This document shows positions 4,491 to 39,272 of a DNA stretch of 46,458 bases, in pieces; within the stretch, counting starts at the first letter, position 1; each line of letters opens with the position of its first letter. The stretch is from Escherichia phage Phagiculus. The stretch lies in sequence record OR896821.1. The stretch is one strand, 5' to 3'. The position numbers and the translations under genes are program-made. The notes under the pieces were generated by a model. The model worked only from the letters and a program-made list of their open reading frames with translations, was not told where the DNA came from and searched no databases.

Positions 4491-4525
4491 TATTAAACCC
4501 TCTTGTTTTCGATGGGTCCAATATA

Positions 4526-4552
4526 ACAAAAAAGACCCCTAAGGGTCTTTGC
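4526..4552 (-). terminator. intrinsic terminator after major tail protein gene
   Basis: minus strand AGACCC-TTAG-GGGTCT followed by TTTTTT. Confidence 0.6.
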
Positions 4553-4564
4553 AAAAAGTGCTAT

Positions 4565-15889: not shown

Positions 15890-15965
15890 TGGCGTTCCGC
15901 GCTGGACTCGAACCAGCAACTGAGACTTAGGAGGTCTCTGCGTTATCCCGTTACGCCAGCAGAAC
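15890..15965 (-). tRNA. tRNA-Arg (anticodon CCU)
   Basis: hand-folded cloverleaf: 7-bp acceptor GTTCTGC/GCGGAAC, D-stem GCGT/ACGC, anticodon stem GAGAC/GTCTC with loop CTCCTAA, T-arm GCTGG-TTCGAGT-CCAGC, discriminator G, encoded CCA. Confidence 0.8.
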
Positions 15966-16882: not shown

Positions 16883-17061
16883 TACTCAACCACCTTAATA
16901 TCTTTAACTAAAACCAGTAAACCATCAGATTCAATCTCGATCATAACCTCATTCCAAGCCTCAATTGCGTTTGATGCCTCAATGATGCGTGAGAATGGTC
17001 CGATACAGTTATAATCTTTATAGTTGTCGTACAAATCACCAGCAATAAAGTAAGTCTTCAT
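16882..17061 (-). CDS. hypothetical protein (59 aa)
   Basis: AGGAG RBS before ATG at 17061; downstream of conserved promoter module. Confidence 0.5.
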   Translation of the reverse strand: MKTYFIAGDLYDNYKDYNCIGPFSRIIEASNAIEAWNEVMIEIESDGLLVLVKDIKVVE

Positions 17062-17089
17062 ATTAATCTCCTGTCGTTTCAATAAAGTA

Positions 17090-17132
17090 ATAGTACCGCA
17101 TCCTTGCGATTGATGTTTAGCAATTCGTGCTA
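17090..17132 (-). promoter_or_regulatory. conserved promoter module (IR TAGCAC-N3-TTGCTA plus -10-like)
   Basis: plus-strand tagcaattcgtgcta at 17118..17132; minus-strand TACTAT 22 nt downstream; leader ATTGAAACGA. Confidence 0.55.
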
Positions 17133-17450
17133 TTTGCTCCAGTTATCCAGGTAATAACTATTGCTTACTACATGCTGAATCTTAGAGTAATCTCGATACT
17201 TATCAATAATCTCCTGAACGTGAGCGCCTCGCTGCTCATGGAACTCTACAGCCTTCTGAAGCGATACAATGGCCTCATTAATGTCAGTAGTATAATCCTT
17301 GTGTCGAGTGCGAATGCCGCTGCACAGAACCTTCTTTATGGCGTGCTGCAGTGCCGGGTCTGTTACTCCAAATGCTGCGATTACTCGATATACATCCACG
17401 GTAGTCTTGGTGCCATCAAGACCAATAATTTCTTTGTTGTACTTACTCAT
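17130..17450 (-). CDS. hypothetical protein (106 aa)
   Basis: ORF in early block. Confidence 0.55.
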   Translation of the reverse strand: MSKYNKEIIGLDGTKTTVDVYRVIAAFGVTDPALQHAIKKVLCSGIRTRHKDYTTDINEAIVSLQKAVEFHEQRGAHVQEIIDKYRDYSKIQHVVSNSYYLDNWSK

Positions 17451-17568
17451 ATCTCAATCCTCGTTATTGTGCCGCCATGCGTCTTCTGCATCAAAATGGC
17501 GTACTGCTCGCTTACATAGTGCAGCAACATTGGTATGCCGCTGCTGCTGAATGAGTGCTCATAGATTT

Positions 17569-17748
17569 TCACTTTAGAAGTGCTCTCTTCACTATCATAT
17601 AATCAAGCGTCGGGCCAATATCATCTTTCATTTGCCTTACAAACTCATTGGCTGACTTCTCATTGTCAAAGCATGAGCTAACGCCAGCAATCAAGCCATT
17701 ATTGTATAAGCAAACCAGGTAAATCCAGCTTTTGTAACCGTTAATCAT
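17569..17748 (-). CDS. hypothetical protein (59 aa)
   Basis: internal ATG at 17748 chosen to avoid 100-nt overlap with upstream gene. Confidence 0.4.
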   Translation of the reverse strand: MINGYKSWIYLVCLYNNGLIAGVSSCFDNEKSANEFVRQMKDDIGPTLDYMIVKRALLK

Positions 17749-17758
17749 TTTACATTCC

Positions 17759-17992
17759 TCACTTGTATTGACTAGCCAGCTGGCAACCTGATAGTGCCGT
17801 GCAAATCTTCTCGTACTCAAGCCAAGCCAAATCTTCCTCACACGATAGAACATCTTCAAACTCTTGATTGCAAATCTGCTCTACGACCTCTGTAAGCGAT
17901 TCTGACGCGGTAAACAACTTACGGTTGAGGCAATGCATTAGTACGGTTTTAATCTCGCTAGCTTGCTCTTCTGACAGGTTAATGGTAATCAT
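17759..17992 (-). CDS. hypothetical protein (77 aa)
   Basis: downstream of conserved promoter module. Confidence 0.5.
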   Translation of the reverse strand: MITINLSEEQASEIKTVLMHCLNRKLFTASESLTEVVEQICNQEFEDVLSCEEDLAWLEYEKICTALSGCQLASQYK

Positions 17993-18021
17993 CTTTACTT
18001 CCTCTCGTTTGGTATGTGCTT

Positions 18022-18064
18022 ATTATATGTAATGCCATCCGTGGCGTCTTAGCAATTCGTGCTA
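18022..18064 (-). promoter_or_regulatory. conserved promoter module
   Basis: tagcaattcgtgcta at 18050..18064; minus-strand TATAAT at 18027..18022. Confidence 0.55.
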
Positions 18065-18078
18065 TTTCCCAATCAGGA

Positions 18079-18576
18079 TTAATTCATCTCCTTAATCATA
18101 TCCTGGTACATCCGGATAGCTTTGATAGCGCCAGATAACTCATCACCTTCCATATCAACGATATTAGGGCTTAACTTCAGGATTCGCTCCTTAAAACTCT
18201 CAATTGCCTTTATCTCAATGTGCTCGTTAGTCTTGTTACGAACCCCTTCTTTAATTGCTCCTTTAATGAGGGTGATCTTCGCACAGTACTCAACCTCATC
18301 TTTGAACTCCATGTCACCAAAAGAAAGTCTAGCTCTGTAATCGGCGTCCTTCATTGACTCCATTCTGCTGGCAGTGTTTGCAACATAGGATGCTTTTAGC
18401 TTGGTAATCTCATAACGACCGCCTCGCTTGAAGTCAACATCAGAAGAGTCGAAGTCAACCTCTCCACCAAGCAGCTGATAAATCTTCTTGACCGGTACAT
18501 GGAACTCTTTGGCCTCAGACTTGAGTGCCTCATCAACCATACCTCGCACTACATCACCCAAAGTTGTATTGCTCAT
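18079..18576 (-). CDS. hypothetical protein (165 aa)
   Basis: first gene of the early minus-strand block. Confidence 0.55.
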   Translation of the reverse strand: MSNTTLGDVVRGMVDEALKSEAKEFHVPVKKIYQLLGGEVDFDSSDVDFKRGGRYEITKLKASYVANTASRMESMKDADYRARLSFGDMEFKDEVEYCAKITLIKGAIKEGVRNKTNEHIEIKAIESFKERILKLSPNIVDMEGDELSGAIKAIRMYQDMIKEMN

Positions 18577-19014
18577 GTCTTTCCCCTCTCGTTAAGTTAC
18601 ATCCATAATATAGCGGACTTATATACGTGTCAATAGCTGTGAAAAAAAATAGACATTGCATGTTTTTACGCTTTAGCCCATGAGAGCCCCGCCACTGCTG
18701 ACTGTGAATCGCTGTGCACAATGTAGATAGAATCCCGCCGGACCCCCTATATATATCTATATCCTTTCGGAGATATGAATATACATCATTGAGAGGAAAC
18801 ATATGGGTATCACCATTATGGCTATCTACACTATTTACATAACAATATTATAATAATAATAATAACTCTAAGTTGTTTATATATATAGATATTTTATTGT
18901 AACTAGCTGTAAATTTACGCGGATTGCGTAGATAAATTCCCGCGCGCGCATTTTTGTCTATAGCTTTAACTTCGTTTACGCGTATCGCATATAGATGAAG
19001 AAATTTAGCCGCAA

Positions 19015-19170
19015 ATGTGAGATGTGCAATCACCATCATCATTTCATTCAATCAATCCATCAATCATTGCAGAAATGGCAACAATCAACAAACCTGTTGC
19101 AATCGATGAAATATTGCTGTATTTGCAATAGTTATGTGAATCATTGCAATTACTGCAACAATCCATAAAT
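19015..19170. repeat. cluster of about 7 palindromic TTGCAA(T) sites (iteron-like)
   Basis: gtgcaatc, cattgcag, gttgcaatcg, tttgcaatag, cattgcaatt, ctgcaacaatc within about 150 bp. Confidence 0.5.
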
Positions 19171-19178
19171 CTAACGAA

Positions 19179-19222
19179 TAGCACTTTTTGCTAAAGACGA
19201 AACCACCATGATTGGGTATAGT
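19179..19222 (+). promoter_or_regulatory. conserved promoter module
   Basis: tagcactttttgcta then aagacg then TATAGT at 19217..19222; leader CCATCGAAACGAA. Confidence 0.6.
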
Positions 19223-19260
19223 TACTCCATCGAAACGAACCAAACACAGGAATCTGAATC

Positions 19261-19443
19261 ATGGCTAAGAAAATCAATAAAAACTCACCAGTAACTAAAG
19301 AAAACATGGTTGCTCTTCTGGTCCAGGAAGGCTACAACCTGGCCAATACTGAAGTCCTGGTAGATACATGGTTTAAAAAGATGGTTAGCGCGCACCCTGA
19401 AGACAACATTAAAGAACTGGCTTACTACTTTAAACACCTGTAA
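19261..19443 (+). CDS. hypothetical protein (60 aa)
   Basis: first gene after promoter module. Confidence 0.55.
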   Translation: MAKKINKNSPVTKENMVALLVQEGYNLANTEVLVDTWFKKMVSAHPEDNIKELAYYFKHL

Positions 19444-19456
19444 CAAATTGGGGCTT

Positions 19457-19675
19457 ATGTCCATTAAATTAACGATAGATGAGACTAAAATGAAAACATT
19501 ATTTAAGAATAAAGATGAAATTGTTGTAGGTGACACGATTATCATGAATGGGGAAATGCATACTATGGGAAAAGAGAGTTTCGGCAGAGATGAGTTTCTT
19601 GGTCGTACGATTCGCGGTGATAGCTTTGCGCTTGGTTATCGCATGGTTGAGGTGGTGGTTGATGTTAAGTTCTAA
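19457..19675 (+). CDS. hypothetical protein (73 aa)
   Basis: ATG at 19457; ORF-track start at 19448 is TTG. Confidence 0.45.
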   Translation: MSIKLTIDETKMKTLFKNKDEIVVGDTIIMNGEMHTMGKESFGRDEFLGRTIRGDSFALGYRMVEVVVDVKF

Positions 19676-19676
19676 A

Positions 19677-19719
19677 TAGCACTTTTTGTTAAAACAGGCA
19701 TTAAGAAAACGAGTATAGT
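19677..19719 (+). promoter_or_regulatory. conserved promoter module
   Basis: tagcactttttgtta, aaacag, TATAGT at 19714..19719. Confidence 0.55.
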
Positions 19720-19747
19720 TATCACATCAACAACGAGGAGATAGAAA

Positions 19748-19981
19748 ATGAAAGCAATAATTATCAACAACGAAATTAAGTTTGACGAAGATGCACTAAG
19801 CCTGGCTGATATGGGTTATGAGATTGGTGAAGAGGTTGAGGTTGCACATTGCAATTGTGATTGCGATTGTGGTTATTATTTCATATATGCAAAGCAAGAC
19901 GTCATTATCGATGGGATTGTCGCTGTAATTAAAGGTGAAGAAGTTCAGGTTAACTCAGAAGAAATTGAGGTGATTGCATGA
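19748..19981 (+). CDS. small Cys-rich protein (HCNCDCDCGYYF)
   Basis: GAGGAG RBS; ORF. Confidence 0.5.
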   Translation: MKAIIINNEIKFDEDALSLADMGYEIGEEVEVAHCNCDCDCGYYFIYAKQDVIIDGIVAVIKGEEVQVNSEEIEVIA

Positions 19982-20184
19982 AACTCTTATGCAAGAACGT
20001 GATTAAGGACTTCAGTCATGTGTTCGTTAGAGGTTCCGTATATGAATCTGAGGGCATGAAAGATAACTCATGCTTAGTTACTGGCGACCATCCACATAAG
20101 CGTCACGGTACATGGCAAGCGGTTAAAACCACACTTGGCGTTACAGTTCTCGGCATAGCAACTTTTACCATCATTGAGGAATAA
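19978..20184 (+). CDS. hypothetical protein (68 aa)
   Basis: ATGA overlap with upstream gene. Confidence 0.45.
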   Translation: MKLLCKNVIKDFSHVFVRGSVYESEGMKDNSCLVTGDHPHKRHGTWQAVKTTLGVTVLGIATFTIIEE

Positions 20185-20188
20185 AAAC

Positions 20189-20542
20189 ATGGCTACTACT
20201 ATCACAAAAAATTGGGTGTCTTCTGATAACAAACTATTTAAAGCTCGAGTTAAAGATGGTGTTGAGCAAATTAAAGCTAATGGCAAATGGGTAAATCTCA
20301 CTGATCGGGGGCGCTATGTTAAGACCAAGACTCTGCTCTGCACCTTTGTTGACCACAAGTCACCGCTCAAGAAGAGCTTCAAGGAAGGTAAGCGTTACCA
20401 GGTATACATGAATGCCTCAATAGGATTTTATGCCGGCTATATTTACGATGAGGATGGAGATGGGTGGCAACTCACCAGAGATGATGCGGTTGGCTTTGGT
20501 GTTAGCTATGGTCTTTACAGATTTGAGGAGCAATACAAATGA
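20189..20542 (+). CDS. hypothetical protein (118 aa)
   Basis: GAGGA RBS before ATG at 20189. Confidence 0.5.
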   Translation: MATTITKNWVSSDNKLFKARVKDGVEQIKANGKWVNLTDRGRYVKTKTLLCTFVDHKSPLKKSFKEGKRYQVYMNASIGFYAGYIYDEDGDGWQLTRDDAVGFGVSYGLYRFEEQYK

Positions 20543-20766
20543 TTCATGAACTAAAGATATTACCAGTACATTTTGATCCGGTAGATACTGGCCTTAAGCT
20601 GGCAGAGCTAAGAAAAAATGACAGAAATTTTTCTGTTGGTGATAAGTTGATACTCAAAGAGTTCCACGATGGTGCTTATACCGGAAGGATTACAATAAAA
20701 GAGGTATTACATATAGCTGATGTTTCCGAATATCTTCCAGGGTATGTTTTACTCTCAATGTATTAA
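20539..20766 (+). CDS. ASCH/DUF3850-like small protein
   Basis: MIHELKILPVHFDPV...LRKNDRNFSVGD pattern typical of the DUF3850 family. Confidence 0.45.
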   Translation: MIHELKILPVHFDPVDTGLKLAELRKNDRNFSVGDKLILKEFHDGAYTGRITIKEVLHIADVSEYLPGYVLLSMY

Positions 20767-20810
20767 TAGCACTTTTTGCTAATGACATTACCCGCCTCGG
20801 CGGGTATATT
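20767..20810 (+). promoter_or_regulatory. conserved promoter module
   Basis: tagcactttttgcta, -35-like ATGACA, TATATT; hairpin CCGCCTCGGCGG in spacer. Confidence 0.55.
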
Positions 20811-20842
20811 TATATCCATCGACAACGAAATAGAGAAATAAG

Positions 20843-22426
20843 ATGTTTGATTTTAACGATGACAAATTGACTGTTGAGCAAGTAATGGCTGTTGCCGCTC
20901 AGGATGGATTGCCTCCCTTACGCGTTGCTATTAATGCTAATGGATATCGCCAGTCTCAATCATTCTGGAAATCACCTGTAGAGATTGACTCTGCAAATGA
21001 TAAGTACCCTACCATCTCTCTTGGTAACGATTTTGATGTGGTTGGTAAGTTAGCTAATAACATTGCTCGCTCTGTTCAGTTCCCCGAGGCTTCAGCTTAC
21101 ATGCACTTCCTGGGTTGCATCTCTGCGGCAATGCTAGGCCGCTTTACGGTTGAGTATCATGGAACTCAGCAACCTACGGCTTTGTACGTGGTAACTAGCC
21201 AGCCCCCATCCACTGGTAAGTCAGCAATCAACTCATTAGCGATTGCGCCAATGGTTGCAGAGGTTGAGCGAATCAACGACCAACGTAAACGTGAACGCAA
21301 GAAGATTATGGCTAAGCTGTCTGCGTTGGCTAAAGAGATGAAACAGGAGAAGTCACCATCTGAAATGGCATCTCTCTTTGAAGAGAAAGAAGACCTGGAG
21401 GAGAAGCTTGAGAAGATGTGCGATGTTGTATTCCCTGTTTCCGACACAACACCCGAAGGTCTTGCTCGCATCAACAATCGCCAGGGTAACTTTGCGGTAA
21501 TCTCGGATGAGGCGACATCAGTAAACTCATTGCTTGGCATGACTTATGGCGATAGTAGCAAGAAGACAAACAGCGAACTAGTTCTTAAGGCGTGGGACTC
21601 TGGTAACGTATCAATCGCTCGTGCCAACGCAGAAAACAATATGAGTTTTGTTGCTTTAGGTTGCATCTCTGTAATCGCGCAGGATGAGACAATTAACGCA
21701 ATAATGGATGCTGGTGCTCGTGGTATCGGTGTATCAGAGCGTTTCTTATTAGTTCGTGAAAAATCATTCCTGGGCGAACGTGTATTTGTTAACGATAACG
21801 GTGAATCAACTTACGAGCCCATCGATAATGGACTGAAAGCTGATTACTTCCGCCTGGTTCATGAAATTATGTCAGAGGTTGATGTTAAGCTGACAATCAG
21901 TAACGGTGCAGCGCTTTACCTTAACCGCGCTCGTCAGGAAATGGAACCTCACCTCGGTGATGGAGGCAAATACTCTCACTCCATGCTACGTGGCGCTCTG
22001 GGCAAGTTTGATAAGCAGGTAATTCGTATTGCGGCAGTTCTTCATACAATTCGCAATTGGGTTAATCTTAATGGTGGTAGTCCGCAGAAAGAAAGAACAA
22101 TTGACCTTGATACTATGCAGGAAGCCATTGCGATTTTCCATGAACTTAGTAAGACTTATCTTTCATCTGCAAATGCGGCTGGTCATGCTGGTGATAATGC
22201 CGAGATGAATAAGCTGATTGATATTTTGATTAAGCAAGGCAAGGCATCCAAAGGAGTGGTGGGCATTCGTGCGCTTTACGAAGCTGCTCGCAAGGTAAAA
22301 CCATTTAACTCCCAGAATGGTACCATGTTAAAGATTAAAGAACACTTAATGCCAATGCTTGATGAAAAAAACTACACTTGCACAATAGGAGAGAAAATTT
22401 ATGTCAACCCTCGCTTGCTTAGCTGA
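20843..22426 (+). CDS. P-loop NTPase, DUF3987-like replication-associated protein
   Basis: Walker A-like QPPSTGKS and Walker B-like VISDEA. Confidence 0.55.
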   Translation: MFDFNDDKLTVEQVMAVAAQDGLPPLRVAINANGYRQSQSFWKSPVEIDSANDKYPTISLGNDFDVVGKLANNIARSVQFPEASAYMHFLGCISAAMLGRFTVEYHGTQQPTALYVVTSQPPSTGKSAINSLAIAPMVAEVERINDQRKRERKKIMAKLSALAKEMKQEKSPSEMASLFEEKEDLEEKLEKMCDVVFPVSDTTPEGLARINNRQGNFAVISDEATSVNSLLGMTYGDSSKKTNSELVLKAWDSGNVSIARANAENNMSFVALGCISVIAQDETINAIMDAGARGIGVSERFLLVREKSFLGERVFVNDNGESTYEPIDNGLKADYFRLVHEIMSEVDVKLTISNGAALYLNRARQEMEPHLGDGGKYSHSMLRGALGKFDKQVIRIAAVLHTIRNWVNLNGGSPQKERTIDLDTMQEAIAIFHELSKTYLSSANAAGHAGDNAEMNKLIDILIKQGKASKGVVGIRALYEAARKVKPFNSQNGTMLKIKEHLMPMLDEKNYTCTIGEKIYVNPRLLS

Positions 22427-22883
22427 TGTTTATTATGATGGTATAGATTTAGTCTGGGCTAGAGATATGGGACCAGCAATAATAAAGGGCAGTTATTGCG
22501 GAAACATTTCAAGGGGTGGGTACAAAAGGTTTTATCATGCAGGTAAACGGCTTAGTAATCACATTGTTATATGGAATATAGTAAATGGAGAAATACCTAA
22601 AGGAATGGAAATTGACCACATAAATCATGACAGATCTGAAAATAGAATAGAAAATTTAAGGCTGGTATCAAGACAGGAAAATGCAAAAAACAAAGGAATC
22701 TATAAAAGCAATACTAGCGGTTTTTCTGGGGTTACTATAGAAAAGAACGGCAAGTTTAAAGCAAGAATATCTGTGAGTGGTAAAAGGGTAGCGCTTGGAA
22801 CTTACATTGATTTTAATGATGCTTGCAACGCGATAATGAAAGCCAGATTGAAGTACAAATTCCACGAAAATCACGGAGGTTAA
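22401..22883 (+). CDS. HNH homing endonuclease with AP2-like domain
   Basis: EIDHINHDRSENRIENLRLVSRQEN; paralogous to 35967..36440. Confidence 0.8.
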   Translation: MSTLACLADVYYDGIDLVWARDMGPAIIKGSYCGNISRGGYKRFYHAGKRLSNHIVIWNIVNGEIPKGMEIDHINHDRSENRIENLRLVSRQENAKNKGIYKSNTSGFSGVTIEKNGKFKARISVSGKRVALGTYIDFNDACNAIMKARLKYKFHENHGG

Positions 22884-22886
22884 CTT

Positions 22887-23221
22887 TGTTTGTATTAGAT
22901 GTATTTAAATTCTGCGAAAGCTATGAGAGATTTAACCGCCAGCATTTGGCAAGGTTCATTTATCAACATAGAGAGTGCGAGAGACTTGCTAAGCTTGCTG
23001 GTGTTACAACTCGATACTTTGCATCAAGCTCTTCAAGGGAGTTCCTTGCAAGGTGTATGTCTGCTGGCTACATTGATGGAGTTAACAACTGGTATTGGGT
23101 GATAAGTAAAAGTCGCAGGCCGTTCGGTTTTGAGTTCAGGAGTTTTAGAGGAAATGATGAGGATTACATCAAGGAGATTATGAGCATTAACGAAATGTCA
23201 GATGATGAGTTGTTTAAATAG
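22887..23221 (+). CDS. hypothetical protein (about 112 aa), probable TTG start
   Basis: GGAGG RBS 6 nt before TTG. Confidence 0.35.
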
Positions 23222-23222
23222 A

Positions 23223-23247
23223 TAAAGGGGCTTACGCCCCTTTTTTA
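23223..23247. terminator. bidirectional terminator between convergent genes
   Basis: AGGGGC-TTAC-GCCCCT flanked by A-run and T-run. Confidence 0.55.
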
Positions 23248-23636
23248 TTGCCTACATATTTTAGTGAGAAGTAAGTCATTAGCCCCGCAATAAGCCCAGC
23301 CAGAATCCCCCAAGCAATAGAATCAACCCCAGAACTTTCGGAGCTATTAATCTCTATTTTTTCCGCATTAATTGAGTGCGCTGAGAGACCCGTAGCGGCT
23401 GTCTTTTTTCCGGCAGATGAATCTACATCCCTGTTAGTTGAGTTGCGCATATCGCTATCTGTGGCGCTAGATTTATCCGTTTGGTTAGATACTCCAACGC
23501 CAGTCTTTTGGTTAGACTCTCCAACCTGAGCAGTTGCTTCAATTCCATCTTTAGCAGGAAGTAAATCAGATACCGCAGAGAGGGCAGAGCAACCAGTCAG
23601 GAAGATAATTGCAGTTAGCGCAAGTGACTTAAGCAT
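23232..23636 (-). CDS. unimolecular spanin (T1 gp11-like)
   Basis: N-terminal lipobox LTGC, C-terminal TM helix, directly downstream of endolysin. Confidence 0.65.
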   Translation of the reverse strand: MLKSLALTAIIFLTGCSALSAVSDLLPAKDGIEATAQVGESNQKTGVGVSNQTDKSSATDSDMRNSTNRDVDSSAGKKTAATGLSAHSINAEKIEINSSESSGVDSIAWGILAGLIAGLMTYFSLKYVGNKKGA

Positions 23637-24100
23637 AGTTCCACCTCTGCATTTCTGCGGTTAACTAACCCTTTAGAAACAACCTTTTTGCCATTTACTG
23701 TAATCTTGTTGAACATCTTCAGCGCATTACATCCGCCATAAATGTCGCCCTGATTAATCTTTCTGATAGCCGTAGATTTACGCATAGCGCTTGTTCCGAC
23801 GTTAAAAGAGAAACTGTATAGTGCAGCCCTGGTATTAACCGGAACGTTCACATTCAATGCTTTATCAACAGCTAGTTGATGAATAGCTAGATGCTTAGCA
23901 AGGAGAGCATCACATTCTTTCTGTGTGTATGTCTTGCCTTTAATTACATCAGGGCCAGTAACCCCCTGGCATACCGTCCAAACACCAGCAACATCAAGGT
24001 ACGGCTTGTACTCAACGCCTTCATGCTTATTCAGGAATGGAACGGCAATGGCTATAGCGGAACCTACGGCGCCGCCAATAACTTTATTCTTTAGGTTCAT
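23615..24100 (-). CDS. SAR endolysin (GH24 lysozyme)
   Basis: E-x8-D-x5-T catalytic pattern (HEGVEYKPYLDVAGVWT) and N-terminal Gly/Ala-rich signal-anchor-release segment. Confidence 0.8.
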   Translation of the reverse strand: MNLKNKVIGGAVGSAIAIAVPFLNKHEGVEYKPYLDVAGVWTVCQGVTGPDVIKGKTYTQKECDALLAKHLAIHQLAVDKALNVNVPVNTRAALYSFSFNVGTSAMRKSTAIRKINQGDIYGGCNALKMFNKITVNGKKVVSKGLVNRRNAEVELCLSHLR

Positions 24101-24315
24101 TATTTACTCCTGATTCGCATAGCCTCACGAATATCTCCATCTTCAAGCGCCTTATGAAGTGCCTTACTGTCACGCCAGCGCAACCATGCGCCGAAAACAC
24201 CGAAGCACACAGCTATGATTAAGCCGATAATGCCGATTATTGTGTTGTCAGATAAGCCGCCACCCATAGCTACTCCGCTACCGGACAAAGCGGCTGCGTC
24301 GTAGAAATGTTTCAA
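24100..24315 (-). CDS. holin
   Basis: 71 aa, single TM, charged C-terminus, overlaps endolysin start. Confidence 0.6.
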   Translation of the reverse strand: MKHFYDAAALSGSGVAMGGGLSDNTIIGIIGLIIAVCFGVFGAWLRWRDSKALHKALEDGDIREAMRIRSK

Positions 24316-24377
24316 CTTGCGGCCTCCATTAGTTTATTTGAACAAATTTTACCAGACAATCCATCAAAACATGAACG

Positions 24378-24404
24378 AAAAAAGGGAGCCGATTAAGGCT
24401 CCCC
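24378..24404 (-). terminator. intrinsic terminator upstream of lysis cassette
   Basis: minus strand GGGAGCC-TTAATC-GGCTCCC followed by TTTTTT. Confidence 0.5.
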
Positions 24405-24429
24405 ATAGGTAAGTTTGTGAATTTATTTG

Positions 24430-24603
24430 TTAATCTGCAACAACAAAAGTCAGATAGTGCCCTTCAAGTGGTGAGTAAATCCATCTACCATCCTCACCAA
24501 GAATCTTGTACATATCACCATCTAAATGCTCAGCATTGTAAGGAGTGTCAATTTCAAATTGCATTGTTTTGGAATCGTTACGTACGCAGAATAATTTAGT
24601 CAT
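24430..24603 (-). CDS. hypothetical small protein (57 aa), not in ORF track
   Basis: GAGAG-type leader as in neighbours; plus-strand ORF 24417..24599 is its shadow. Confidence 0.35.
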   Translation of the reverse strand: MTKLFCVRNDSKTMQFEIDTPYNAEHLDGDMYKILGEDGRWIYSPLEGHYLTFVVAD

Positions 24604-24617
24604 TTTCAATCTCTCTA

Positions 24618-24806
24618 TTAACGGTTAATGCAAACAAGTGTTTCGGATTTAATTGGGAAGCTATTACCACCCTGCGTTTTAATCATTACGAATGTAACTG
24701 TTGGGTAGTGATTTAATTCTATGCTTTTGACTTTCTGTGGCGGGCAGTTAGTGAAAATAACCTCATCACCCACCTTAACATTATCAACTCTAATTGTCTG
24801 AATCAT
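24618..24806 (-). CDS. hypothetical protein (62 aa)
   Basis: ATGA overlap with upstream gene. Confidence 0.45.
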   Translation of the reverse strand: MIQTIRVDNVKVGDEVIFTNCPPQKVKSIELNHYPTVTFVMIKTQGGNSFPIKSETLVCINR

Positions 24807-24988
24807 TTCTCACCTAATGCAGTCAGGATTGCGTAAGCGATTTCACGCGCATTCTTTCCGGTAAGGTTAATAACGTCAACCTTAATATCTTCTTCGCTTG
24901 ATCCGTATGCCTGAGCAATTTTGAAAGTTTTACCAAAACCAACTTCTTTAACTTCGATCTGCGCATCTGATTGGGTGAACTTAGCCAT
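24803..24988 (-). CDS. hypothetical protein (61 aa)
   Basis: downstream of conserved promoter module. Confidence 0.5.
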   Translation of the reverse strand: MAKFTQSDAQIEVKEVGFGKTFKIAQAYGSSEEDIKVDVINLTGKNAREIAYAILTALGEK

Positions 24989-25020
24989 TTTCTATTTCCT
25001 CTCTCGTTTTCGATTTAGTG

Positions 25021-25063
25021 ATAATATCAGGTTTTTACTTTGTGTCTTTAGCAATTCGTGCTT
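25021..25063 (-). promoter_or_regulatory. conserved promoter module
   Basis: tagcaattcgtgctt (one mismatch); minus-strand TATTAT at 25026..25021; leader ATCGAAAACGAGAGAGG. Confidence 0.5.
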
Positions 25064-25205
25064 TTTCTAATGCTTCTTGAACTTCTTCAAAACTAGCAAT
25101 CAGCAAGCAAGCCATTACATTCTCATCAAATACTCGCCAACCTTTCCCGCTATATGCCGCTATGGTGTCGTGGTCGAAATAATTAATCTCGCTAGGTTTT
25201 AACAT
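25035..25205 (-). CDS. hypothetical protein (56 aa)
   Basis: internal ATG at 25205 adjacent to upstream stop. Confidence 0.4.
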   Translation of the reverse strand: MLKPSEINYFDHDTIAAYSGKGWRVFDENVMACLLIASFEEVQEALEKARIAKDTK

Positions 25206-25206
25206 A

Positions 25207-25431
25207 TCACACCTTCTTGGATTCGTTAGTGTAGCATTCAAGAATGATTTTCTTATCTTCAATTGAAAGTGATGAGTGATTTAACCAATCAACAATCGTA
25301 TTCACATCAAATCCTTCCAGGTAGATTGATTTACCTTGTTCACACAAATCAACTGAATTTGGTTTATCTGCTGCATCTGCGTTAACACTCGCCGCTGCCA
25401 TGAGGATTGTTGCAATAATCAGCTTCTTCAT
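25207..25431 (-). CDS. small secreted/periplasmic protein (signal peptide MKKLIIATILMAAASVNA)
   Basis: N-terminal signal peptide pattern; downstream of promoter module. Confidence 0.5.
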   Translation of the reverse strand: MKKLIIATILMAAASVNADAADKPNSVDLCEQGKSIYLEGFDVNTIVDWLNHSSLSIEDKKIILECYTNESKKV

Positions 25432-25463
25432 TTCTCTAACTCCATCTCGTTGTCGATGAAATA

Positions 25464-25507
25464 AATATAGCGCCTTTCGGCGCTATAGTCTTTAGCAAAA
25501 AGTGCTA
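25464..25507 (-). promoter_or_regulatory. conserved promoter module with hairpin in spacer
   Basis: tagcaaaaagtgcta at 25493..25507; ATAGCGCC-TTTC-GGCGCTAT hairpin; TATATT. Confidence 0.5.
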
Positions 25508-26644
25508 CTTAGTGAACATTTTAGGACGGCAGATGAATCGACCAACCTCGCCAAACTCTTTATGATAAATAATTACCGCAGCCTGACGCTGTGAACGCCA
25601 GCCTCCATTTGCACTGTATGCGTCAGGAGAGCCAAGCTGACCGTGAACCTCGTCAATACCCAAGTTAGTCTCTGTAATCTTCTGTGAGTGCCAGTGCCCT
25701 GAGTGGGTGTAAACATAATCACTAACACCAAAATCACGTCGCCAATCAGTAGCCATAACAGTCAATCGCGTTTCGGCTTTCCGCATCTGGTGGCCGTGAG
25801 TGTATCCAATCAAAGTAGAGCCAAACTTAGTAACCATCATAGCCGCGGGGCTTACGTCAACCGTGACTCGAGGCTCATCCTCATAGAATGCAGCAAGAGC
25901 GGCGCGAAGCCAAACCATACCAGATTCGTCGTGGTTGCCAGAAATTGTTTTAATATCAATAGTTTGGTGCTTCTCAAGCATCTTACGAATAGCTCGACGA
26001 ACAGACCTAATACAAACATAAACAATCTTAGCATAACGGCTGTCGCTGTCTAAAATATGACCGCTTGCAGGTGTCTTAGCCTCAAGTGAATCATAGTGAA
26101 TCAAGTCACCACCAAGTACAAGTACGGCATTCTTTGAGTTCGGCGCTTCATTTACAGCATAATCAAAGAAGTCATTCATTACCTTTTCTGCGGTTGCCGT
26201 GTCGTAGTTTTCACCACACTCATGCTTGTGAGCCATAGCGCCAATATGAAGGTCAAATACAGGGTACATAGCCAAAGTGTTTTCATCAAAAACTTTACCC
26301 TTAACTTCAACTGGTTCTTCTTTAGGTAACTCGGAGCAGAAAGCCTCTCGAGCTTGCTCCATCAACTGCTCAAGTCGCTCATTGTCAACGCTAGTCTTGA
26401 CCCACCGAATCTTCTCATTTCCTTCTGCGTCAATCATGGTTGATGTTCCCTTCACCATGTAACCATCTGGAACAAGCTTCTTAATGCCAGGATTTCCATG
26501 CAACTCACCAGCCTTAGCCAGCTTACTACGACGCAATTCAACATTGCGAATATTCATACCGTACTTCTCTGCGATTGCCTTGTTAGTCATTCCGTTCGCC
26601 AGTTCTTCACGAAGCTGTTCGTTGCTGATTTTTGCAGTTGCCAT
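25505..26644 (-). CDS. metallophosphoesterase (Mre11/SbcD-like) with N-terminal HTH
   Basis: FDLHIG, GGDLIH, GNHDE, GHWH motifs; N-terminal GMTNKAIAEKYGMNIRNVELRRSKL. Confidence 0.7.
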   Translation of the reverse strand: MATAKISNEQLREELANGMTNKAIAEKYGMNIRNVELRRSKLAKAGELHGNPGIKKLVPDGYMVKGTSTMIDAEGNEKIRWVKTSVDNERLEQLMEQAREAFCSELPKEEPVEVKGKVFDENTLAMYPVFDLHIGAMAHKHECGENYDTATAEKVMNDFFDYAVNEAPNSKNAVLVLGGDLIHYDSLEAKTPASGHILDSDSRYAKIVYVCIRSVRRAIRKMLEKHQTIDIKTISGNHDESGMVWLRAALAAFYEDEPRVTVDVSPAAMMVTKFGSTLIGYTHGHQMRKAETRLTVMATDWRRDFGVSDYVYTHSGHWHSQKITETNLGIDEVHGQLGSPDAYSANGGWRSQRQAAVIIYHKEFGEVGRFICRPKMFTK

Positions 26645-26726
26645 TTTTAAGTTCCTTAATTCATTACGATAAAGTATAAGATAGTAAAGCTAAACAGTGG
26701 TGCTAATGCTACTAGTGTTAGTGTTC

Positions 26727-27223: not shown

Positions 27224-27345
27224 AGGCCGTAAGCCATTTTTAAATATTCTCTAGCGCACATCCATGACCGTTCTGACTTACTCTTAACGGCATCTCTTGC
27301 GTAAACCTGTGCAATCTCGAACATCTCTCTGTCTACAATTTTCAT
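27220..27345 (-). CDS. hypothetical small protein (41 aa), not in ORF track
   Basis: TAATG and ATGA overlaps with both neighbours. Confidence 0.3.
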   Translation of the reverse strand: MKIVDREMFEIAQVYARDAVKSKSERSWMCAREYLKMAYGL

Positions 27346-27996: not shown

Positions 27997-28032
27997 TTTG
28001 TTTCTCTCTCTGCGTTTCGTTTCGATGAAGTG

Positions 28033-28075
28033 ATAATACATCACTTCTCCGATTCGTCTTTAGCAATTAGTGCTA
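28033..28075 (-). promoter_or_regulatory. conserved promoter module
   Basis: tagcaattagtgcta at 28061..28075; aagacg; minus-strand TATTAT at 28038..28033; leader CATCGAAACGAAACG. Confidence 0.6.
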
Positions 28076-28450
28076 TTTTGATAAGTAATCCTCAATCGCC
28101 AGCTTAAACATTTCAAAACCGTAACAGATAGCTGCGTAACCTCCTGTTTCTGATACCTTTTCTAGGAAATCCTTTTGCTCCTTTGAAACCTTGCTATCTG
28201 ATTTTATTGCGCGCTTAAGTTCGATTGCCGCGAATCCATTTGGTCCAATCAGCAAGATATCTGAAACTCCCTTGATTACACCTTCCTGCTTATCCTTGAC
28301 GGCAGTTCCAATTGACTTCAGGCCTTCATTCTTGACGTGAAAGGCAAATATCTCAGGGTGGTTATGACGCACCCAAGCAATCGAATTAACCTGGTGAACA
28401 ACCTCTTTAGCTTTATCCGTGCTTGTCTTGTCGTGAAATACTTTAATCAT
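28073..28450 (-). CDS. VRR-NUC domain nuclease
   Basis: GVSDILLIGPNGFAAIELK D...E.K pattern; AAGGAG RBS before ATG at 28450. Confidence 0.5.
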   Translation of the reverse strand: MIKVFHDKTSTDKAKEVVHQVNSIAWVRHNHPEIFAFHVKNEGLKSIGTAVKDKQEGVIKGVSDILLIGPNGFAAIELKRAIKSDSKVSKEQKDFLEKVSETGGYAAICYGFEMFKLAIEDYLSK

Positions 28451-28451
28451 A

Positions 28452-30382: not shown

Positions 30383-30394
30383 TGACCTTGCCAT

Positions 30395-30422
30395 TTGTTT
30401 CGTTTATGTATGGTGCTATAAT
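30395..30422 (+). promoter_or_regulatory. sigma70-like extended -10 promoter for HTH gene
   Basis: TTGTTT - 16 nt - TGcTATAAT on plus strand. Confidence 0.4.
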
Positions 30423-30459
30423 ACACGACAAGCGAAAACACTTTTAGCAAAAAATGCTA
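30418..30459 (-). promoter_or_regulatory. conserved promoter module (divergent with 30395..30422)
   Basis: tagcaaaaaatgcta at 30445..30459; minus-strand TATTAT at 30423..30418. Confidence 0.5.
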
Positions 30460-30469
30460 TCGAGGTTAA

Positions 30470-35892: not shown

Positions 35893-35921
35893 CTCTGTCT
35901 CTCTTTTTTGTCGATTAGGTA

Positions 35922-35964
35922 ACTATACACCATCGATTTAATCCTGTTTTAGCTATTCGTGCTA
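35922..35964 (-). promoter_or_regulatory. conserved promoter module
   Basis: tagctattcgtgcta (one mismatch); minus-strand TATAGT at 35927..35922; leader CCTAATCGACAAAAAAGAGAGA. Confidence 0.5.
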
Positions 35965-35966
35965 TA

Positions 35967-38869: not shown

Positions 38870-39272
38870 TCATGAGCCCGCACCAACACTGGATGTAACT
38901 CATGTAAACGCTGTAACAGTAGTTTTTGCGCCCCTATCTATATATCCATATGCATTTGGCAACACCAGAAACAGAACTTAGTCATTTCAAAAAAACATAT
39001 CAACACAACCATAGAAGGTAGTTACACTATATACAAACAAATATAGTAATAATAATAATTACTCTAAACCCTTATTATATAAGGATTCTTTAGTGTAACT
39101 AATGCGTATCTGCGCGTAAAAAGCGTATACAATTTCCCGCGGGTCAGGATTGCATACATCGATTTACATAGGTTACGCGTATATCAAATAGCACGATTTG
39201 CTAAAGACTGACTGAAGCACCTTTGGTATAGTTACTCCATCGAAACGAAAAACACTTAATAAGGATTCAAAA
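38870..39272. repeat. AT-rich control region B, paralogous to 18670..19260
   Basis: same ordered sequence blocks as region A, ending in conserved promoter module. Confidence 0.6.
39189..39232 (+). promoter_or_regulatory. conserved promoter module
   Basis: tagcacgatttgcta, aagact, TATAGT at 39227..39232; leader TACTCCATCGAAACGAA identical to the one at 19222..19250. Confidence 0.6.

What the first reader, a model, noticed from the sequence alone, without database searches (positions are those of the whole stretch)
19222..19250. Conserved leader motif ATCGAAACGA immediately downstream of the -10 elements
Several modules carry a near-identical transcribed leader (TACTCCATCGAAACGAA at 19223 and 39233; CATCGAAACGAAACG at 28021; ATCGAAAACGAGAGAGG at 25000; ATTGAAACGACAGGAG at 17070). 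Conservation beyond the promoter suggests an RNA-level element such as a translation enhancer, processing site or regulator binding site.
Basis: seen in the sequence. Interest (0 to 1): 0.5.

Follow-up and report, generated by a model that had tools for sequence, protein, structure and literature searches.

The report
Shared start sequence of phage promoters
The motif is real, but it is the first 10-13 transcribed bases of a compact promoter cassette that occurs twelve times in this T1-like phage genome and also in unrelated enterobacterial phages. It belongs to an already described kind of mobile early-promoter cassette and is not a separate RNA element.

Summary
Observation confirmed and extended. 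The window is a T1-like siphophage (Drexlerviridae). ATCGA(N)AACGA occurs 7 times against 0.16 expected, and 6 of the 7 sit at one fixed place in a repeated intergenic cassette. The cassette reads: stop codon, AATAGCACnnnTTGCTAAAGAC, 19-21 nt, TAtanT, 6 nt, A(+1)TCGAaAACGA, SD, ATG. There are 12 cassettes. All start AT at the predicted +1/+2.

The motif is anchored to the -10 hexamer, not to the start codon. It is unstructured, purine-rich and T-depleted, and it is absent upstream of genes that lack a promoter.

The same start block occurs behind other upstream elements:
- TTGACA promoters of RB49/phi1 PeSL cassettes, whose promoter activity was shown by others;
- Slopekvirus promoters;
- phi80 pL, about 400 nt from any gene;
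- in part, the mapped T7 A1 and A3 starts.

Best reading: it is the start site plus initial transcribed sequence of sigma70 early-promoter cassettes, probably selected for efficient initiation and escape. A secondary RNA-level benefit (U-poor, open leader) is not excluded. Two cassettes bound a 0.5-kb insertion, which is PeSL-style shuffling. No start site has been mapped for this phage. Novelty is modest: a new member of a known kind, with a cross-family conservation I did not find discussed in the literature I could search.

The parts
19178..19260 (+). Cassette 4, the reported site. Upstream repeat (DR) 19178-19195; -10 TATAGT 19217-19222; discriminator TACTCC 19223-19228; predicted +1 at 19229; ITS ATCGAAACGAAC 19229-19240; leader 32 nt; CDS 19261-19443 (DUF7421 ORFan).
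39188..39272 (+). Cassette 12. DR 39188-39205; -10 TATAGT 39227-39232; +1 at 39239; ITS ATCGAAACGAAA 39239-39250; leader 34 nt; CDS 39273-39377 (34-aa hydrophobic peptide). It shares an identical 25-nt block, GGTATAGTTACTCCATCGAAACGAA, with cassette 4, flanked by unrelated sequence.
27997..28076 (-). Cassette 9. DR 28076-28059; -10 TATTAT 28038-28033; +1 at 28026; ITS ATCGAAACGAAA 28026-28015; leader 30 nt; CDS 27996-27802. An inverted repeat GAAGTGAT/ATCACTTC (28047-28027) encloses the -10 and ends at -1.
24989..25064 (-). Cassette 7. DR 25064-25047; -10 TGATATTAT 25029-25021; +1 at 25014; ITS ATCGAAAACGAG 25014-25003; leader 26 nt; CDS 24988-24803.
17062..17133 (-). Cassette 2. DR 17133-17116, with the TAG stop of the upstream ORF inside it; -10 TACTAT 17095-17090; +1 at 17083; ITS ATTGAAACGACA 17083-17072; leader 22 nt; CDS 17061-16882. 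GAAACGACAG is shared with the T7 A3 start region.
25432..25508 (-). Cassette 8. DR 25508-25491, with the TAG stop of the 379-aa ORF inside it; terminator-like hairpin 25487-25466 in the spacer; -10 TATATT 25469-25464; +1 at 25457; ITS ATCGACAACGAG 25457-25446; CDS 25431-25207.
20766..20842 (+). Cassette 6. DR 20766-20783; terminator-like hairpin 20789-20806 in the spacer; -10 TATATT 20805-20810; +1 at 20818; ITS ATCGACAACGAA 20818-20829; CDS 20843-22426 (DNA helicase).
19676..19747 (+). Cassette 5. DR 19676-19693; -10 TATAGT 19714-19719; +1 at 19726; ITS ATCAACAACGAG 19726-19737; CDS 19748-19981. Together with cassette 4 it bounds an insertion of about 0.5 kb (19223-19719) that is absent from AHP42 and Opt-79.
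17993..18065 (-). Cassette 3. DR 18065-18048; -10 TATAAT 18027-18022; +1 at 18015; ITS ATACCAAACGAG 18015-18004, the variant also seen in phi1 PeSL206/205; CDS 17992-17759.
4491..4564 (-). Cassette 1. DR 4564-4547; GC hairpin plus T-run in the spacer; -10 TATATT 4525-4520; +1 at 4513; ITS ATCGAAAACAAG 4513-4502; CDS 4490-3789 (DNA methyltransferase).
30384..30460 (-). Cassette 10. DR 30460-30443; -10 TATTAT 30423-30418; +1 at 30411; ITS ATACATAAACGA 30411-30400; CDS 30383-28452 (DNA helicase).
35893..35965 (-). Cassette 11. DR 35965-35948; -10 TATAGT 35927-35922; +1 at 35915; ITS ATCGACAAAAAA 35915-35904; CDS 35892-35242 (Erf-like annealing protein).

Best explanation
ATCGAAACGA is the transcription start site (the A in C-A-T) plus the first 10-13 transcribed bases, the initial transcribed sequence (ITS), of a host sigma70 early-promoter cassette. 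The cassette occurs 12 times in this T1-like phage.

Each cassette starts at or next to the stop codon of the preceding gene. It consists of an 18-21 nt upstream repeat (ATAGCACnnnTTGCTAAA), a 19-21 nt variable spacer that sometimes holds a terminator hairpin, a -10 hexamer often preceded by TGn, a C-rich 6-nt discriminator, the ITS, a short U-poor leader, the SD and the ATG.

Shown here: the anatomy, the fixed register to the -10, the family-wide and cross-family conservation, and the absence of RNA structure.

Inferred: the block is conserved because it is part of the promoter's working core. It fixes the start at a C-A-T triplet and gives a purine-rich, T-poor ITS with no pause-prone YG at +5 to +7. 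Such an ITS should let RNA polymerase leave a tightly bound promoter quickly with little abortive cycling, as documented for the T7 A1 and T5 N25 ITS. A likely by-product is a U-poor, unstructured 5' leader that suits translation and stability.

The cassettes also act as PeSL-type recombination joints for swapping small early genes.
For: (1) Register. In all 12 cassettes the motif begins exactly 6 nt (7 in one) after the -10 hexamer, while the distance to the ATG varies from 22 to 34 nt.

(2) Family-wide logo. In 193-211 non-identical cassettes from T1, the window and IMG/VR contigs, a logo anchored on the -10 shows G at -14 in 152/211, C at -1 in 145/211 and A at +1 in 158/211, followed by tCGAAAcgAA. 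ATCGA-like words peak sharply at +1 (68/193). AACGA is positioned more tightly relative to the start site than to the ATG (entropy 3.26 against 4.11 bits). Motif frequency does not depend on leader length (17/58, 29/91, 12/36).

(3) Promoter association. In T1, AACGA is in 8/14 cassette leaders against 4/63 upstream regions of other genes (Fisher p = 5e-5). Three of those 4 also follow -10-like hexamers.

(4) Independence from the upstream element. The same start block follows:
- TTGACA-N17 promoters of Krischvirus ECD7, phi1 and RB49 PeSLs;
- a TTGCAT-N17-TATAGT promoter in Slopekvirus KP27;
- phi80 pL, TTGACC-N17-TTTAAT-TACTCC-ATCGAAACGAAAC, with gene N about 400 nt downstream.

(5) Mapped starts. 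The annotated start points in the T7 record give A1 = ATCGAGAGGGA, preceded by CC, and A3 = ATGAAACGACAG.

(6) Published function of related cassettes. phi1 PeSL206/205 drove about 13,000 Miller units, and most clones carried down-mutations (PMC2839356). The RB49 early-promoter consensus, with C at -3 to -1, agrees with 5'-end mapping (PMC1524935).

(7) ITS literature. [quoted passage not shown] T's within the first 7 nt and YG near +5 to +7 slow escape, whereas GA/GG favour it (PMC5961368). The window ITS have 8-9 purines in 12, usually a single T (at +2) in the first 12, and AAA at +5 to +7.

(8) Contiguity. The conserved block runs on into the untranscribed C-rich -6 to -1 segment.

(9) Host genomes. 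The 38-nt core occurs in only 67/5426 genomes, and the listed hits are mostly laboratory strains (DH5alpha, TOP10, JM83) that, from my own knowledge, carry phi80 lacZdeltaM15 DNA.
Against: - No start site has been mapped for this phage or for any T1-like phage in the searchable literature. The +1 rests on spacing and analogy.
- No ITS effect has been measured for this sequence.
- T depletion (6-12% against 28% background) extends to about +17. That is beyond the roughly 10 nt that matter most for escape, and it fits an RNA-level pressure better.
- Only about 30% of family cassettes match a fairly strict motif pattern, so considerable variation is tolerated.
- T at +2 was a slow-escape feature at lacUV5, and CG had negative effects at +5/+6 in two contexts. 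The published rules are therefore only partly met and depend on context.
- A generic sigma70 scan flags only 2 of 8 cassettes, because the -35 position is poor. Promoter identity rests on the -10, the TGn and homology to PeSLs.
Confidence: 0.55

Rival explanations
1. RNA-level leader function. The 5'-terminal AUCGAAACGAAAC is selected in the mRNA. It would act as a C/A-rich, unstructured ribosome landing or enhancer region, or as a U-free stretch lacking RNase E sites, or as a 5' end that is a poor substrate for decay. The DNA-level promoter role would be incidental.
For: - Leaders fold less stably than shuffled controls (mean z +0.9 over 12).
- T is depleted from +4 to +17, right up to the SD.
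- Leaders are short, with a mode of 25-26 nt.
- AACGAGAGG often runs straight into the SD.
- From my own knowledge, not tested here: C/A-rich and ACA elements upstream of an SD enhance translation in enterobacteria, and RNase E prefers sites containing U.
Against: - The motif is anchored to the -10, not to the SD or ATG.
- It is absent from the upstream regions of internal genes with good SDs.
- It is present at phi80 pL, about 400 nt from the nearest gene.
- The conserved block continues into untranscribed positions -6 to -1.
- No conserved structure, no covariation in the tiny UCG/CGA stem, and no Rfam family.
Confidence: 0.25
2. Hitch-hiking or recombination homology. The sequence has little function of its own. 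It persists because whole cassettes spread and homogenise by recombination (PeSL-type shuffling, gene conversion), and short identical blocks are what the recombination needs.
For: - Cassettes 19178+ and 19676+ bound a 0.5-kb insertion. Relatives AHP42 and Opt-79 carry one chimeric cassette whose joint lies at the shared TATAGTTA.
- In several relatives homology to the window ends at or within the ITS (query positions 164-180).
- Cassettes 4 and 12 share an identical 25-nt block within unrelated flanks.
- The PeSL papers propose exactly this role (PMC2839356, PMC4122927).
Against: - The spacers inside the same cassettes are fully diverged while the ITS is kept, so homogenisation is not wholesale.
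- The block is conserved across four unrelated phage groups and behind three different upstream elements.
- The base-by-base profile (A+1, A+5 to A+7, T avoidance) looks like selection on composition and position rather than on identity alone.
Confidence: 0.12
3. Operator. The +1 to +12 block is the DNA binding site of a phage or host regulator that shuts off or times early transcription by blocking the start site.
For: - It overlaps the start site, a classical repressor position.
- TCG-N3/4-CGA is a weak inverted repeat (read).
- The phage encodes a regulator (phrog_2856, about 30477-30950 on the + strand) next to cassette 10.
Against: - The half-site spacing varies (N3 against N4) and the arms are only 3 bp.
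- The block is shared by phages that, as far as I know, have no regulator in common (not checked here): T1-like, RB49-like, Slopekvirus and phi80.
- The better candidate for a protein site is the upstream palindrome TAGCA-N5-TGCTA, centred near -42.
Confidence: 0.05

Closest known systems
PeSL (promoter-early stem-loop) cassettes of T4-type phages RB49/phi1 (Arbiol et al. 2010, PMC2839356; Comeau et al. 2014, PMC4122927)
   Same: - Compact intergenic cassette running from the upstream stop codon to the SD and ATG.
- Sigma70 -10 hexamer.
- GC (polyG/polyC) stem-loop between the boxes or overlapping the -10.
- Placed before small ORFans and early genes.
- Bounds indels between related genomes.
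- The discriminator and leader are the same sequence family: acacccATCGAAACGAAACAC, ATACCGAAACGAA, ATCAAAACGAGATAC.
   Different: The phi1/RB49 cassettes have a consensus TTGACA -35 with an A-rich tract upstream. The window's cassettes have AAGACn at that position and the 18-nt ATAGCACnnnTTGCTAAA repeat instead. Only about 4-5 of the 12 window cassettes have a clear stem-loop. The parts of the 2010 PeSL paper that I read (its PeSL section and term matches) do not mention the conserved start/ITS block; of the 2014 paper I read only the first third.
21-nt direct repeats of T1-like phages, aaATAGCACnnnTTGnTAAAA (TLS re-annotation, PMC11447400)
   Same: The same upstream repeat, in the same orientation, intergenic, about 76 nt before start codons. 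In the window the distance is 72-85 nt. The paper reports it for TLS, T1, Rtp and Rogue1.
   Different: That paper leaves the function open (stoperator, enhancer site or UP-like). In its transcription section, which is the part I read, it does not link the repeat to a -10 at a fixed 19-21 nt or to the conserved start block analysed here.
Major early promoters A1 and A3 of phage T7 (start points annotated in NC_001604)
   Same: Strong host-RNAP early promoters. Their transcripts begin ATCGAGAGGGA (A1, preceded by TACAGCC) and ATGAAACGACAG (A3). Compare TACTCC-ATCGAAACGA and ATTGAAACGACAGGAG in the window. The A1 ITS is documented to support easy promoter escape (PMC12464699).
   Different: The identity is only partial. 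The T7 promoters have canonical -35 boxes, 7-nt discriminators and long leaders, and they are not repeated cassettes.
phi80 pL, the lambdoid early leftward promoter
   Same: The discriminator plus ITS is identical: TACTCC-ATCGAAACGAAAC after the annotated -10.
   Different: It is a single promoter of a temperate phage under CI operators. It has a TTGACC -35 and a leader of about 400 nt with nutL, and no nearby SD.
T5 N25-type 'downstream sequence region' / ITS effects on promoter strength
   Same: A conserved, purine-rich transcribed segment of a strong phage early promoter that acts after RNAP binding (PMC5961368, PMC12464699).
   Different: The sequence differs. From memory, N25 starts ATAAATTTGAGAGAGGAG, which I did not check. 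The functional effect has been measured for N25 and A1 but not for this motif.

Membership tests
PeSL cassette | Intergenic cassette that begins at or near the stop codon of the upstream gene and ends with the SD and start codon | tested here: met
   For cassettes 17133-, 25508- and 28076- the upstream stop codon (TAG) lies inside the repeat. For 19676+, 20766+, 35965- and 4564- a TAA or TGA stop abuts it or overlaps its first base. All 12 end in an SD plus ATG, 22-34 nt after +1.
PeSL cassette | Sigma70-type -10 box with the start about 7 nt downstream | tested here: met
   TAtanT is present in 12/12, with A(+1) 6-7 nt after it. The family logo shows T-12, A-11, T-7 and G-14.
PeSL cassette | Consensus -35 (TTGACA) with an AT-rich tract upstream | tested here: not met
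   The -35 position reads AAGACn or AAAACn. The upstream part is the ATAGCACnnnTTGCTAAA repeat. A generic scan finds only 2 of 8 cassettes.
PeSL cassette | Stable stem-loop (often polyG/polyC) between the boxes or overlapping the -10 | tested here: inconclusive
   Clear in 4-5 of the 12 window cassettes (4564-, 20766+, 25508-, 28076-; weaker in 17133-). Most T1 cassettes have it, with z from -3 to -6, and many KP36 cassettes show the same GGGG/CCCC inverted repeats by eye (not folded).
PeSL cassette | Cassettes bound insertions or deletions between related genomes | tested here: met
   19223-19719 is present in the window and absent from AHP42 and Opt-79. It is flanked by two cassettes, and the relatives carry one chimeric cassette.
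PeSL cassette | Sequence relatedness to the phi1/RB49 cassettes | tested here: met
   Related from the -10 to the SD only: acaccc/acacac plus ATCGAAACGA / ATACCGAAACGA / ATCAAAACGAGATAC.
PeSL cassette | Promoter and terminator activity in reporter assays | not testable with these tools
   Shown by others for phi1 PeSL206/205 and PeSL211/210 (PMC2839356). Not done for this phage.
T1/TLS 21-nt direct-repeat element | Consensus aaATAGCACnnnTTGnTAAAA, intergenic, co-oriented with genes, about 76 nt before start codons | tested here: met
   15 matches with up to 2 mismatches against 1.96 expected, with 0/100 shuffles reaching that count. Twelve are co-oriented cassettes, 72-85 nt before the ATG.
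Promoter ITS / downstream element of strong sigma70 phage promoters | Fixed register to the -10 and start site; purine-rich, T-poor non-template strand; no YG at +5 to +7 | tested here: met
   The published rules come from PMC5961368 and PMC12464699.
Promoter ITS / downstream element of strong sigma70 phage promoters | Measured effect on abortive/productive ratio or on escape rate | not testable with these tools
   Requires in vitro transcription.
T4 MotA-dependent middle promoter (the KP27 record labels its copies 'putative middle promoter') | Mot box (a/t)(a/t)(a/t)TGCTTtA placed 11-13 bp upstream of the -10 | tested here: not met
   TTTGCTAAA resembles a Mot box but ends 20-21 bp before the -10. 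The consensus is taken from PMC1524935.
T4 MotA-dependent middle promoter | The phage encodes MotA and AsiA | not tested
   No MotA ortholog was found in RB49 or RB43 by others (PMC1524935). The window's ORFs were not scanned for MotA or AsiA.
Sigma54 (-24/-12) promoter | GG-N10-GC (TGGCAC-N5-TTGCW) | tested here: not met
   The repeat reads TAGCAC-N3-TTGCT, which is AG-N8-GC. It is two bases short and lacks the GG (read). The consensus is from my own knowledge.
Structured cis-regulatory RNA | Rfam match, or a stable or conserved secondary structure | tested here: not met
   Rfam at gathering thresholds finds only a tRNA at 15893-15965. Leader MFE z-scores range from 0.0 to +1.8.

The most novel reading that the evidence does not exclude
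AUCGAAACGAAAC would be a cross-family 'early-transcript signature'. In this reading a specific 5'-terminal sequence is shared by T1-like siphoviruses, RB49-like and Slopekvirus myoviruses and phi80 pL, and echoed in T7 A1 and A3. It would be recognised as such by a host component: the RNAP active-centre or sigma 3.2 path as a dedicated escape enhancer, or an RNA-end factor that controls decay or ribosome loading. Horizontal movement of promoter cassettes would spread it between phage families. On this reading it would be a discrete promoter element comparable to the UP or extended -10 elements, not merely a favourable composition.
Probability: 0.12. Interest if true: 0.75.

Novelty: new member of a known kind. 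Interest (0 to 1): 0.4.

Why it matters
Standard promoter finders miss most promoters of T1-like phages. The TLS authors found only three, and the generic scan here flags 2 of 8 cassettes. The block '-10, 6 nt, CATCGAAACGA' is a sharper landmark for annotating early transcription units in Drexlerviridae, Krischvirus and Slopekvirus.

It links two literatures that have not been connected: the unexplained 21-nt repeats of T1-like phages and the PeSL cassettes of T4-like phages. It also shows PeSL-style cassette shuffling in a siphovirus.

Finally, it offers a naturally selected, cross-family initial transcribed sequence. This makes the long-standing question of how ITS sequence sets promoter output directly testable, and it may be useful for promoter design.

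Tried and rejected
- Chance: rejected. ATCGA.?AACGA gives 7 hits against 0.16 expected, with 6 in one register. The lone hit at 12137 is antisense inside a 367-aa ORF and is chance.
- Recent duplication of whole intergenic regions: rejected. The spacers are unrelated.
- Structured RNA or riboswitch: rejected. There is no Rfam hit and leaders are less structured than shuffles. The tiny UCG-AAA-CGA stem is only 3 bp, and variants such as ATCAA... and ATAGA... break it without compensation.
- General SD-linked translation enhancer: disfavoured (phi80 pL).
- Sigma54 promoter for the upstream repeat: rejected on spacing and the missing GG.
- T4 MotA middle promoter (the KP27 record's label): rejected on spacing.
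- Standard -35: TTGCTA lies 22 bp from the -10, which is too far. AAGACn at the proper place is a poor match.
- Literature search for mapped start sites in T1-like phages: nothing found. The RB49 5'-mapping paper (PMC135041) is not held.
- Host promoters with the same core: none seen. The listed E. coli hits are mostly laboratory strains that, from my own knowledge, carry phi80 DNA.
- Pfam gave nothing for the putative regulator next to cassette 10. PHROGs did.
Full report
WHAT THE WINDOW IS. Megablast of 17000-29000 finds T1-like siphoviruses (JK06, e4/1c, Rogue1, the AHP24 group) at about 79% identity over about half the query. The window is therefore a fairly divergent member of the Drexlerviridae, and at 46.5 kb is probably close to a whole genome. 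Rfam at gathering thresholds finds only one tRNA.

THE OBSERVATION. All five quoted sites exist. Exact ATCGAAACGA occurs four times. With one mismatch allowed the count (7 against 2.5 expected) is only marginal. The real unit allows one optional base. ATCGA.?AACGA occurs 7 times against 0.16 +/- 0.37 in dinucleotide shuffles, and six of the seven occupy the same position in a repeated cassette. The seventh (12137+) is antisense to codons 3-6 of a 367-aa ORF and is taken as chance.

ANATOMY.
- Upstream repeat. A search for the repeat AGCACnnnTTGCTAAA gives 15 hits against 2 expected. Twelve of them head co-oriented intergenic cassettes.
- Layout. Each cassette reads: stop codon of the preceding gene inside or next to AATAGCACnnnTTGCTAAA(G)AC; 19-21 nt of unrelated spacer; a -10 hexamer (TATAGT, TATTAT, TATATT, TATAAT or TACTAT); 6 nt, mostly C/T-rich; then ATCGAaAACGA; a short leader; the SD; and the ATG.
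- Start block. All 12 begin AT. Nine have C at +3, nine have G at +4, eleven have A at +5 and twelve have A at +7.
- Leaders are 22-34 nt.
- Downstream genes are a DNA methyltransferase, two helicases, an Erf-like annealing protein and small ORFans. These are early or DNA-metabolism functions, not virion genes.
- Hairpins. In three cassettes (4564-, 20766+, 25508-) the spacer holds a GC hairpin whose T-tract is the -10 itself. In 28076- an inverted repeat encloses the -10 and ends at -1.

IS IT TIED TO THE PROMOTER OR TO THE MESSAGE?
- I collected 193-211 non-identical cassettes from T1 (L001) and from IMG/VR contigs found with the repeat.
- Anchored on the -10, the logo shows an extended -10 (G at -14 in 152/211), a C-rich -4 to -1, C at -1 (145/211) and A at +1 (158/211). 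This is the classical C-A-T start triplet placed 7 nt after the hexamer. Then comes tCGAAAcgAA.
- ATCGA-like words peak at exactly +1 (68/193). AACGA is positioned more tightly relative to the start than to the ATG. Motif frequency does not depend on leader length.
- In T1, AACGA lies in 8/14 cassette leaders but in only 4/63 upstream regions of other genes (p = 5e-5). Three of those four also follow -10-like hexamers.
- The 60-nt transcript starts (+1 to +60) fold less stably than shuffles (mean z +0.9), and the first 12 nt contain 8-9 purines and usually one T.
- T is held at 6-12% from +4 to +17, against 28% background.
- The block therefore travels with the -10 and start site, has no RNA structure, and is not a general companion of ribosome-binding sites.

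THE SAME BLOCK IN OTHER PHAGES. This was the most informative result.
- Klebsiella Webervirus KP36 has CCCCATCGAAACGAAC.
- BLAST with the cassette finds 426 phage records, and with the -10-to-SD core 986 records. They include about 175-kb Straboviridae.
- In Slopekvirus KP13MC5-1, KP27 and Pectobacterium POP12 the whole cassette, upstream repeat included, is present.
- KP27 also has TTGCAT-N17-TATAGT-acttac-ATCGAAACGAAACAC with no upstream repeat.
- Krischvirus ECD7, phi1 and RB49 have TTGACA-N17-CATAAT-acaccc-ATCGAAACGAAACAC and close variants, at 10-12 places per genome.
- Lambdoid phi80 pL reads TTGACC-N17-TTTAAT-TACTCC-ATCGAAACGAAAC, identical to the window's discriminator plus ITS, with the N gene about 400 nt away.
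- The annotated start points of T7 give A1 = ATCGAGAGGGA and A3 = ATGAAACGACAG. Cassette 2 of the window reads ATTGAAACGACAGGAG.
- In 5,426 complete E. coli genomes the core is found in only 67, and the listed hits are mostly laboratory strains (DH5alpha, TOP10, JM83) that, from my own knowledge, carry phi80 DNA.
- The start block is thus independent of the kind of upstream element. It was found only in phage genomes and in those 67 E. coli genomes, whose flanking genes I did not inspect, and it is shared across unrelated phage groups. That argues for a host partner, with RNA polymerase the simplest candidate, rather than a phage-specific regulator.

WHAT IS ALREADY KNOWN.
- The upstream repeat was reported for TLS, T1, Rtp and Rogue1 as a 21-nt direct repeat of unknown function (PMC11447400).
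- The RB49/phi1 cassettes are the PeSLs of Arbiol et al. They comprise a stop codon, an AT-rich tract, -35 and -10 boxes, a polyG/polyC stem-loop between or over the boxes, the SD and the ATG. lacZ fusions showed very strong promoter activity and terminator activity, and the authors proposed a role in modular shuffling (PMC2839356; PMC4122927).
- Nolan et al. note a C preference at -3 to -1 and report that the RB49 early consensus agrees with 5'-end mapping (PMC1524935).
- None of the parts of these papers that I read, nor the KP15/KP27 paper, discusses the conserved start/ITS block.

RECOMBINATION SIGNATURE. Aligning 19060-19330 with AHP42, P818 and Opt-79 shows a near-invariant upstream region, an invariant repeat, a variable spacer, a conserved -10 and ATC.A.A, and then complete loss of homology. 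AHP42 and Opt-79 have one cassette. Its left part matches the window's cassette 19178+, and its right part, from TATAGTTATCAC onward and including the downstream gene, matches cassette 19676+. So 19223-19719, carrying two small ORFs, is a cassette-bounded insertion. This is the pattern described for PeSLs.

MECHANISM.
- Shown: the anatomy, the register, the conservation and the lack of structure.
- Inferred: the A of CATCGA is +1, and the following 10-13 nt are kept because they belong to the promoter's functional core.
- Support from the literature: ITS changes alter output by 10- to more than 100-fold. The T7 A1 ITS gives easy escape on three promoters. Purine-rich non-template ITS favour escape, while T's in the first 7 nt and YG near +5 to +7 slow it (PMC12464699, PMC5961368). 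The motif fits these rules in part, with a single T, GAAA at +4 to +7 and no TG.
- Caveats: T at +2 and CG dinucleotides are not uniformly favourable, and T avoidance continues to +17, beyond the escape window. I therefore keep a substantial RNA-level rival, in which a U-free, open, C/A-rich leader benefits translation or RNase E resistance. I regard the two as probably complementary.
- Weaker rivals are hitch-hiking through cassette recombination and an operator role.

REJECTED IDEAS FOR THE UPSTREAM REPEAT. It resembles a sigma54 -24/-12 element but is 2 nt short and lacks the GG. It resembles a T4 Mot box but lies 20-21 bp, not 11-13 bp, from the -10. Its palindrome TAGCA-N5-TGCTA is centred near -42, a class II activator position. 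A phrog_2856 'transcriptional regulator' gene sits next to cassette 10. I did not pursue this further.

VERDICT. However, the element is best filed as the start/ITS portion of a PeSL-type early-promoter cassette, in the T1-family version that carries the 21-nt repeat. This is a new member of a known kind. The modestly new points are the cross-family conservation of the start block and the link between the T1 repeats and PeSLs. Interest 0.4.

Noticed in passing
window 19045-19172: The divergent intergenic region just upstream of cassette 4 is almost invariant across AHP42 (Rogunavirus), P818 (Nouzillyvirus) and Klebsiella phage Opt-79. It is built from repeats: a 34-nt direct repeat AATCATTGCAnnnnnTGCAACAATC (19062-19095 and 19139-19172) and several ATTGCA/TGCAAT inverted repeats. 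It could be an operator array or an origin-like region.
   Followed up: partly
window 19223-19719: An insertion of about 0.5 kb carrying two small ORFs (19261-19443, DUF7421; 19448-19675). It is bounded by cassettes 19178+ and 19676+. Relatives AHP42 and Opt-79 have a single chimeric cassette at this position, which is PeSL-style modular shuffling in a siphovirus.
   Followed up: yes
window 20789-20806 (+), 25487-25466 (-), about 4543-4526 (-); L001 (T1) 39998-40024 and 41980-42007: Terminator-like GC hairpins sit inside the promoter spacer, and their T-tract is the -10 hexamer plus discriminator. One short stretch could therefore both end the upstream transcript and start the next one. The T1 record annotates the equivalent hairpins as rho-independent terminators.
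   Followed up: partly
L001 (T1) 1450+, 2269+, 3535+, 4344+, 4864+, 47117-, 47633-; L123 (KP36) 1781+, 3503+; window 28047-28027 (-): In many cassettes a GC-rich inverted repeat (GGGG...CCCC) encloses the -10 hexamer, and its 3' arm ends exactly at -1 (MFE z from -3 to -5). The arm sequences differ between cassettes while the complementarity is kept. This matches the PeSL subclass 'stem-loop overlapping the -10'. Its role is unknown; it could act as an attenuator of read-through or as a 3' stabiliser.
   Followed up: partly
window DR copies (for example 19178-19195); window about 30477-30950 (+): The upstream repeat contains the palindrome TAGCA-N5-TGCTA, with half-sites 10 bp apart, centred near -42 relative to the predicted start. 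That is a class II activator position. A gene matching phrog_2856 'transcriptional regulator' lies divergently next to cassette 10 and is a candidate binder.
   Followed up: partly
L001 (T1) 15086-, 18850-, 34902+, 8362+: These copies of the 21-nt repeat lack a convincing -10 hexamer or start block downstream (18850- has only a weak TAAGAT and no motif). Two of them lie on the strand opposite to the late genes. The repeat may therefore have a role that does not depend on these promoters.
   Followed up: no
L001 (T1) 1450+, 4864+, 47117-, 18872 upstream; L123 (KP36) 5770+, 7253+, 40294+, 33483-: A second recurrent leader block, ACCAATCAG(A)GGA(G/A), spans the SD in T1 and KP36. The SD-to-ATG segment GGAGAATCAAA(A)ATG recurs in phi1 and ECD7 and, as GGAATCAAAAATG, in T1. 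Whole 5' UTRs appear to be shared modules.
   Followed up: no
window 18633-18605 (-): A near-consensus sigma70 promoter (TTGACA-17-TATTAT, 11/12) with no upstream repeat. It is followed by ggatgt-AACTTAACGAGAGGGG and the 165-aa ORF starting at 18576. This is a different promoter type that still ends in AACGAGAGG.
   Followed up: no
window 15893-15965 (-): A single tRNA gene (Rfam RF00005, 56.9 bits), as reported for related Rogunaviruses, which carry one tRNA-Arg.
   Followed up: no
E. coli genomes, for example NZ_CP025520 127003-127029: The promoter core GTATAGTTACTCCATCGAAACGAAACA-like sequence is found in 67 of 5,426 complete E. coli genomes. The listed hits are mostly laboratory strains (DH5alpha, TOP10, JM83, NEB5-alpha) that, from my own knowledge, carry phi80 lacZdeltaM15 DNA, so the match there is probably the phi80 pL promoter. 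I did not inspect the neighbouring genes.
   Followed up: partly
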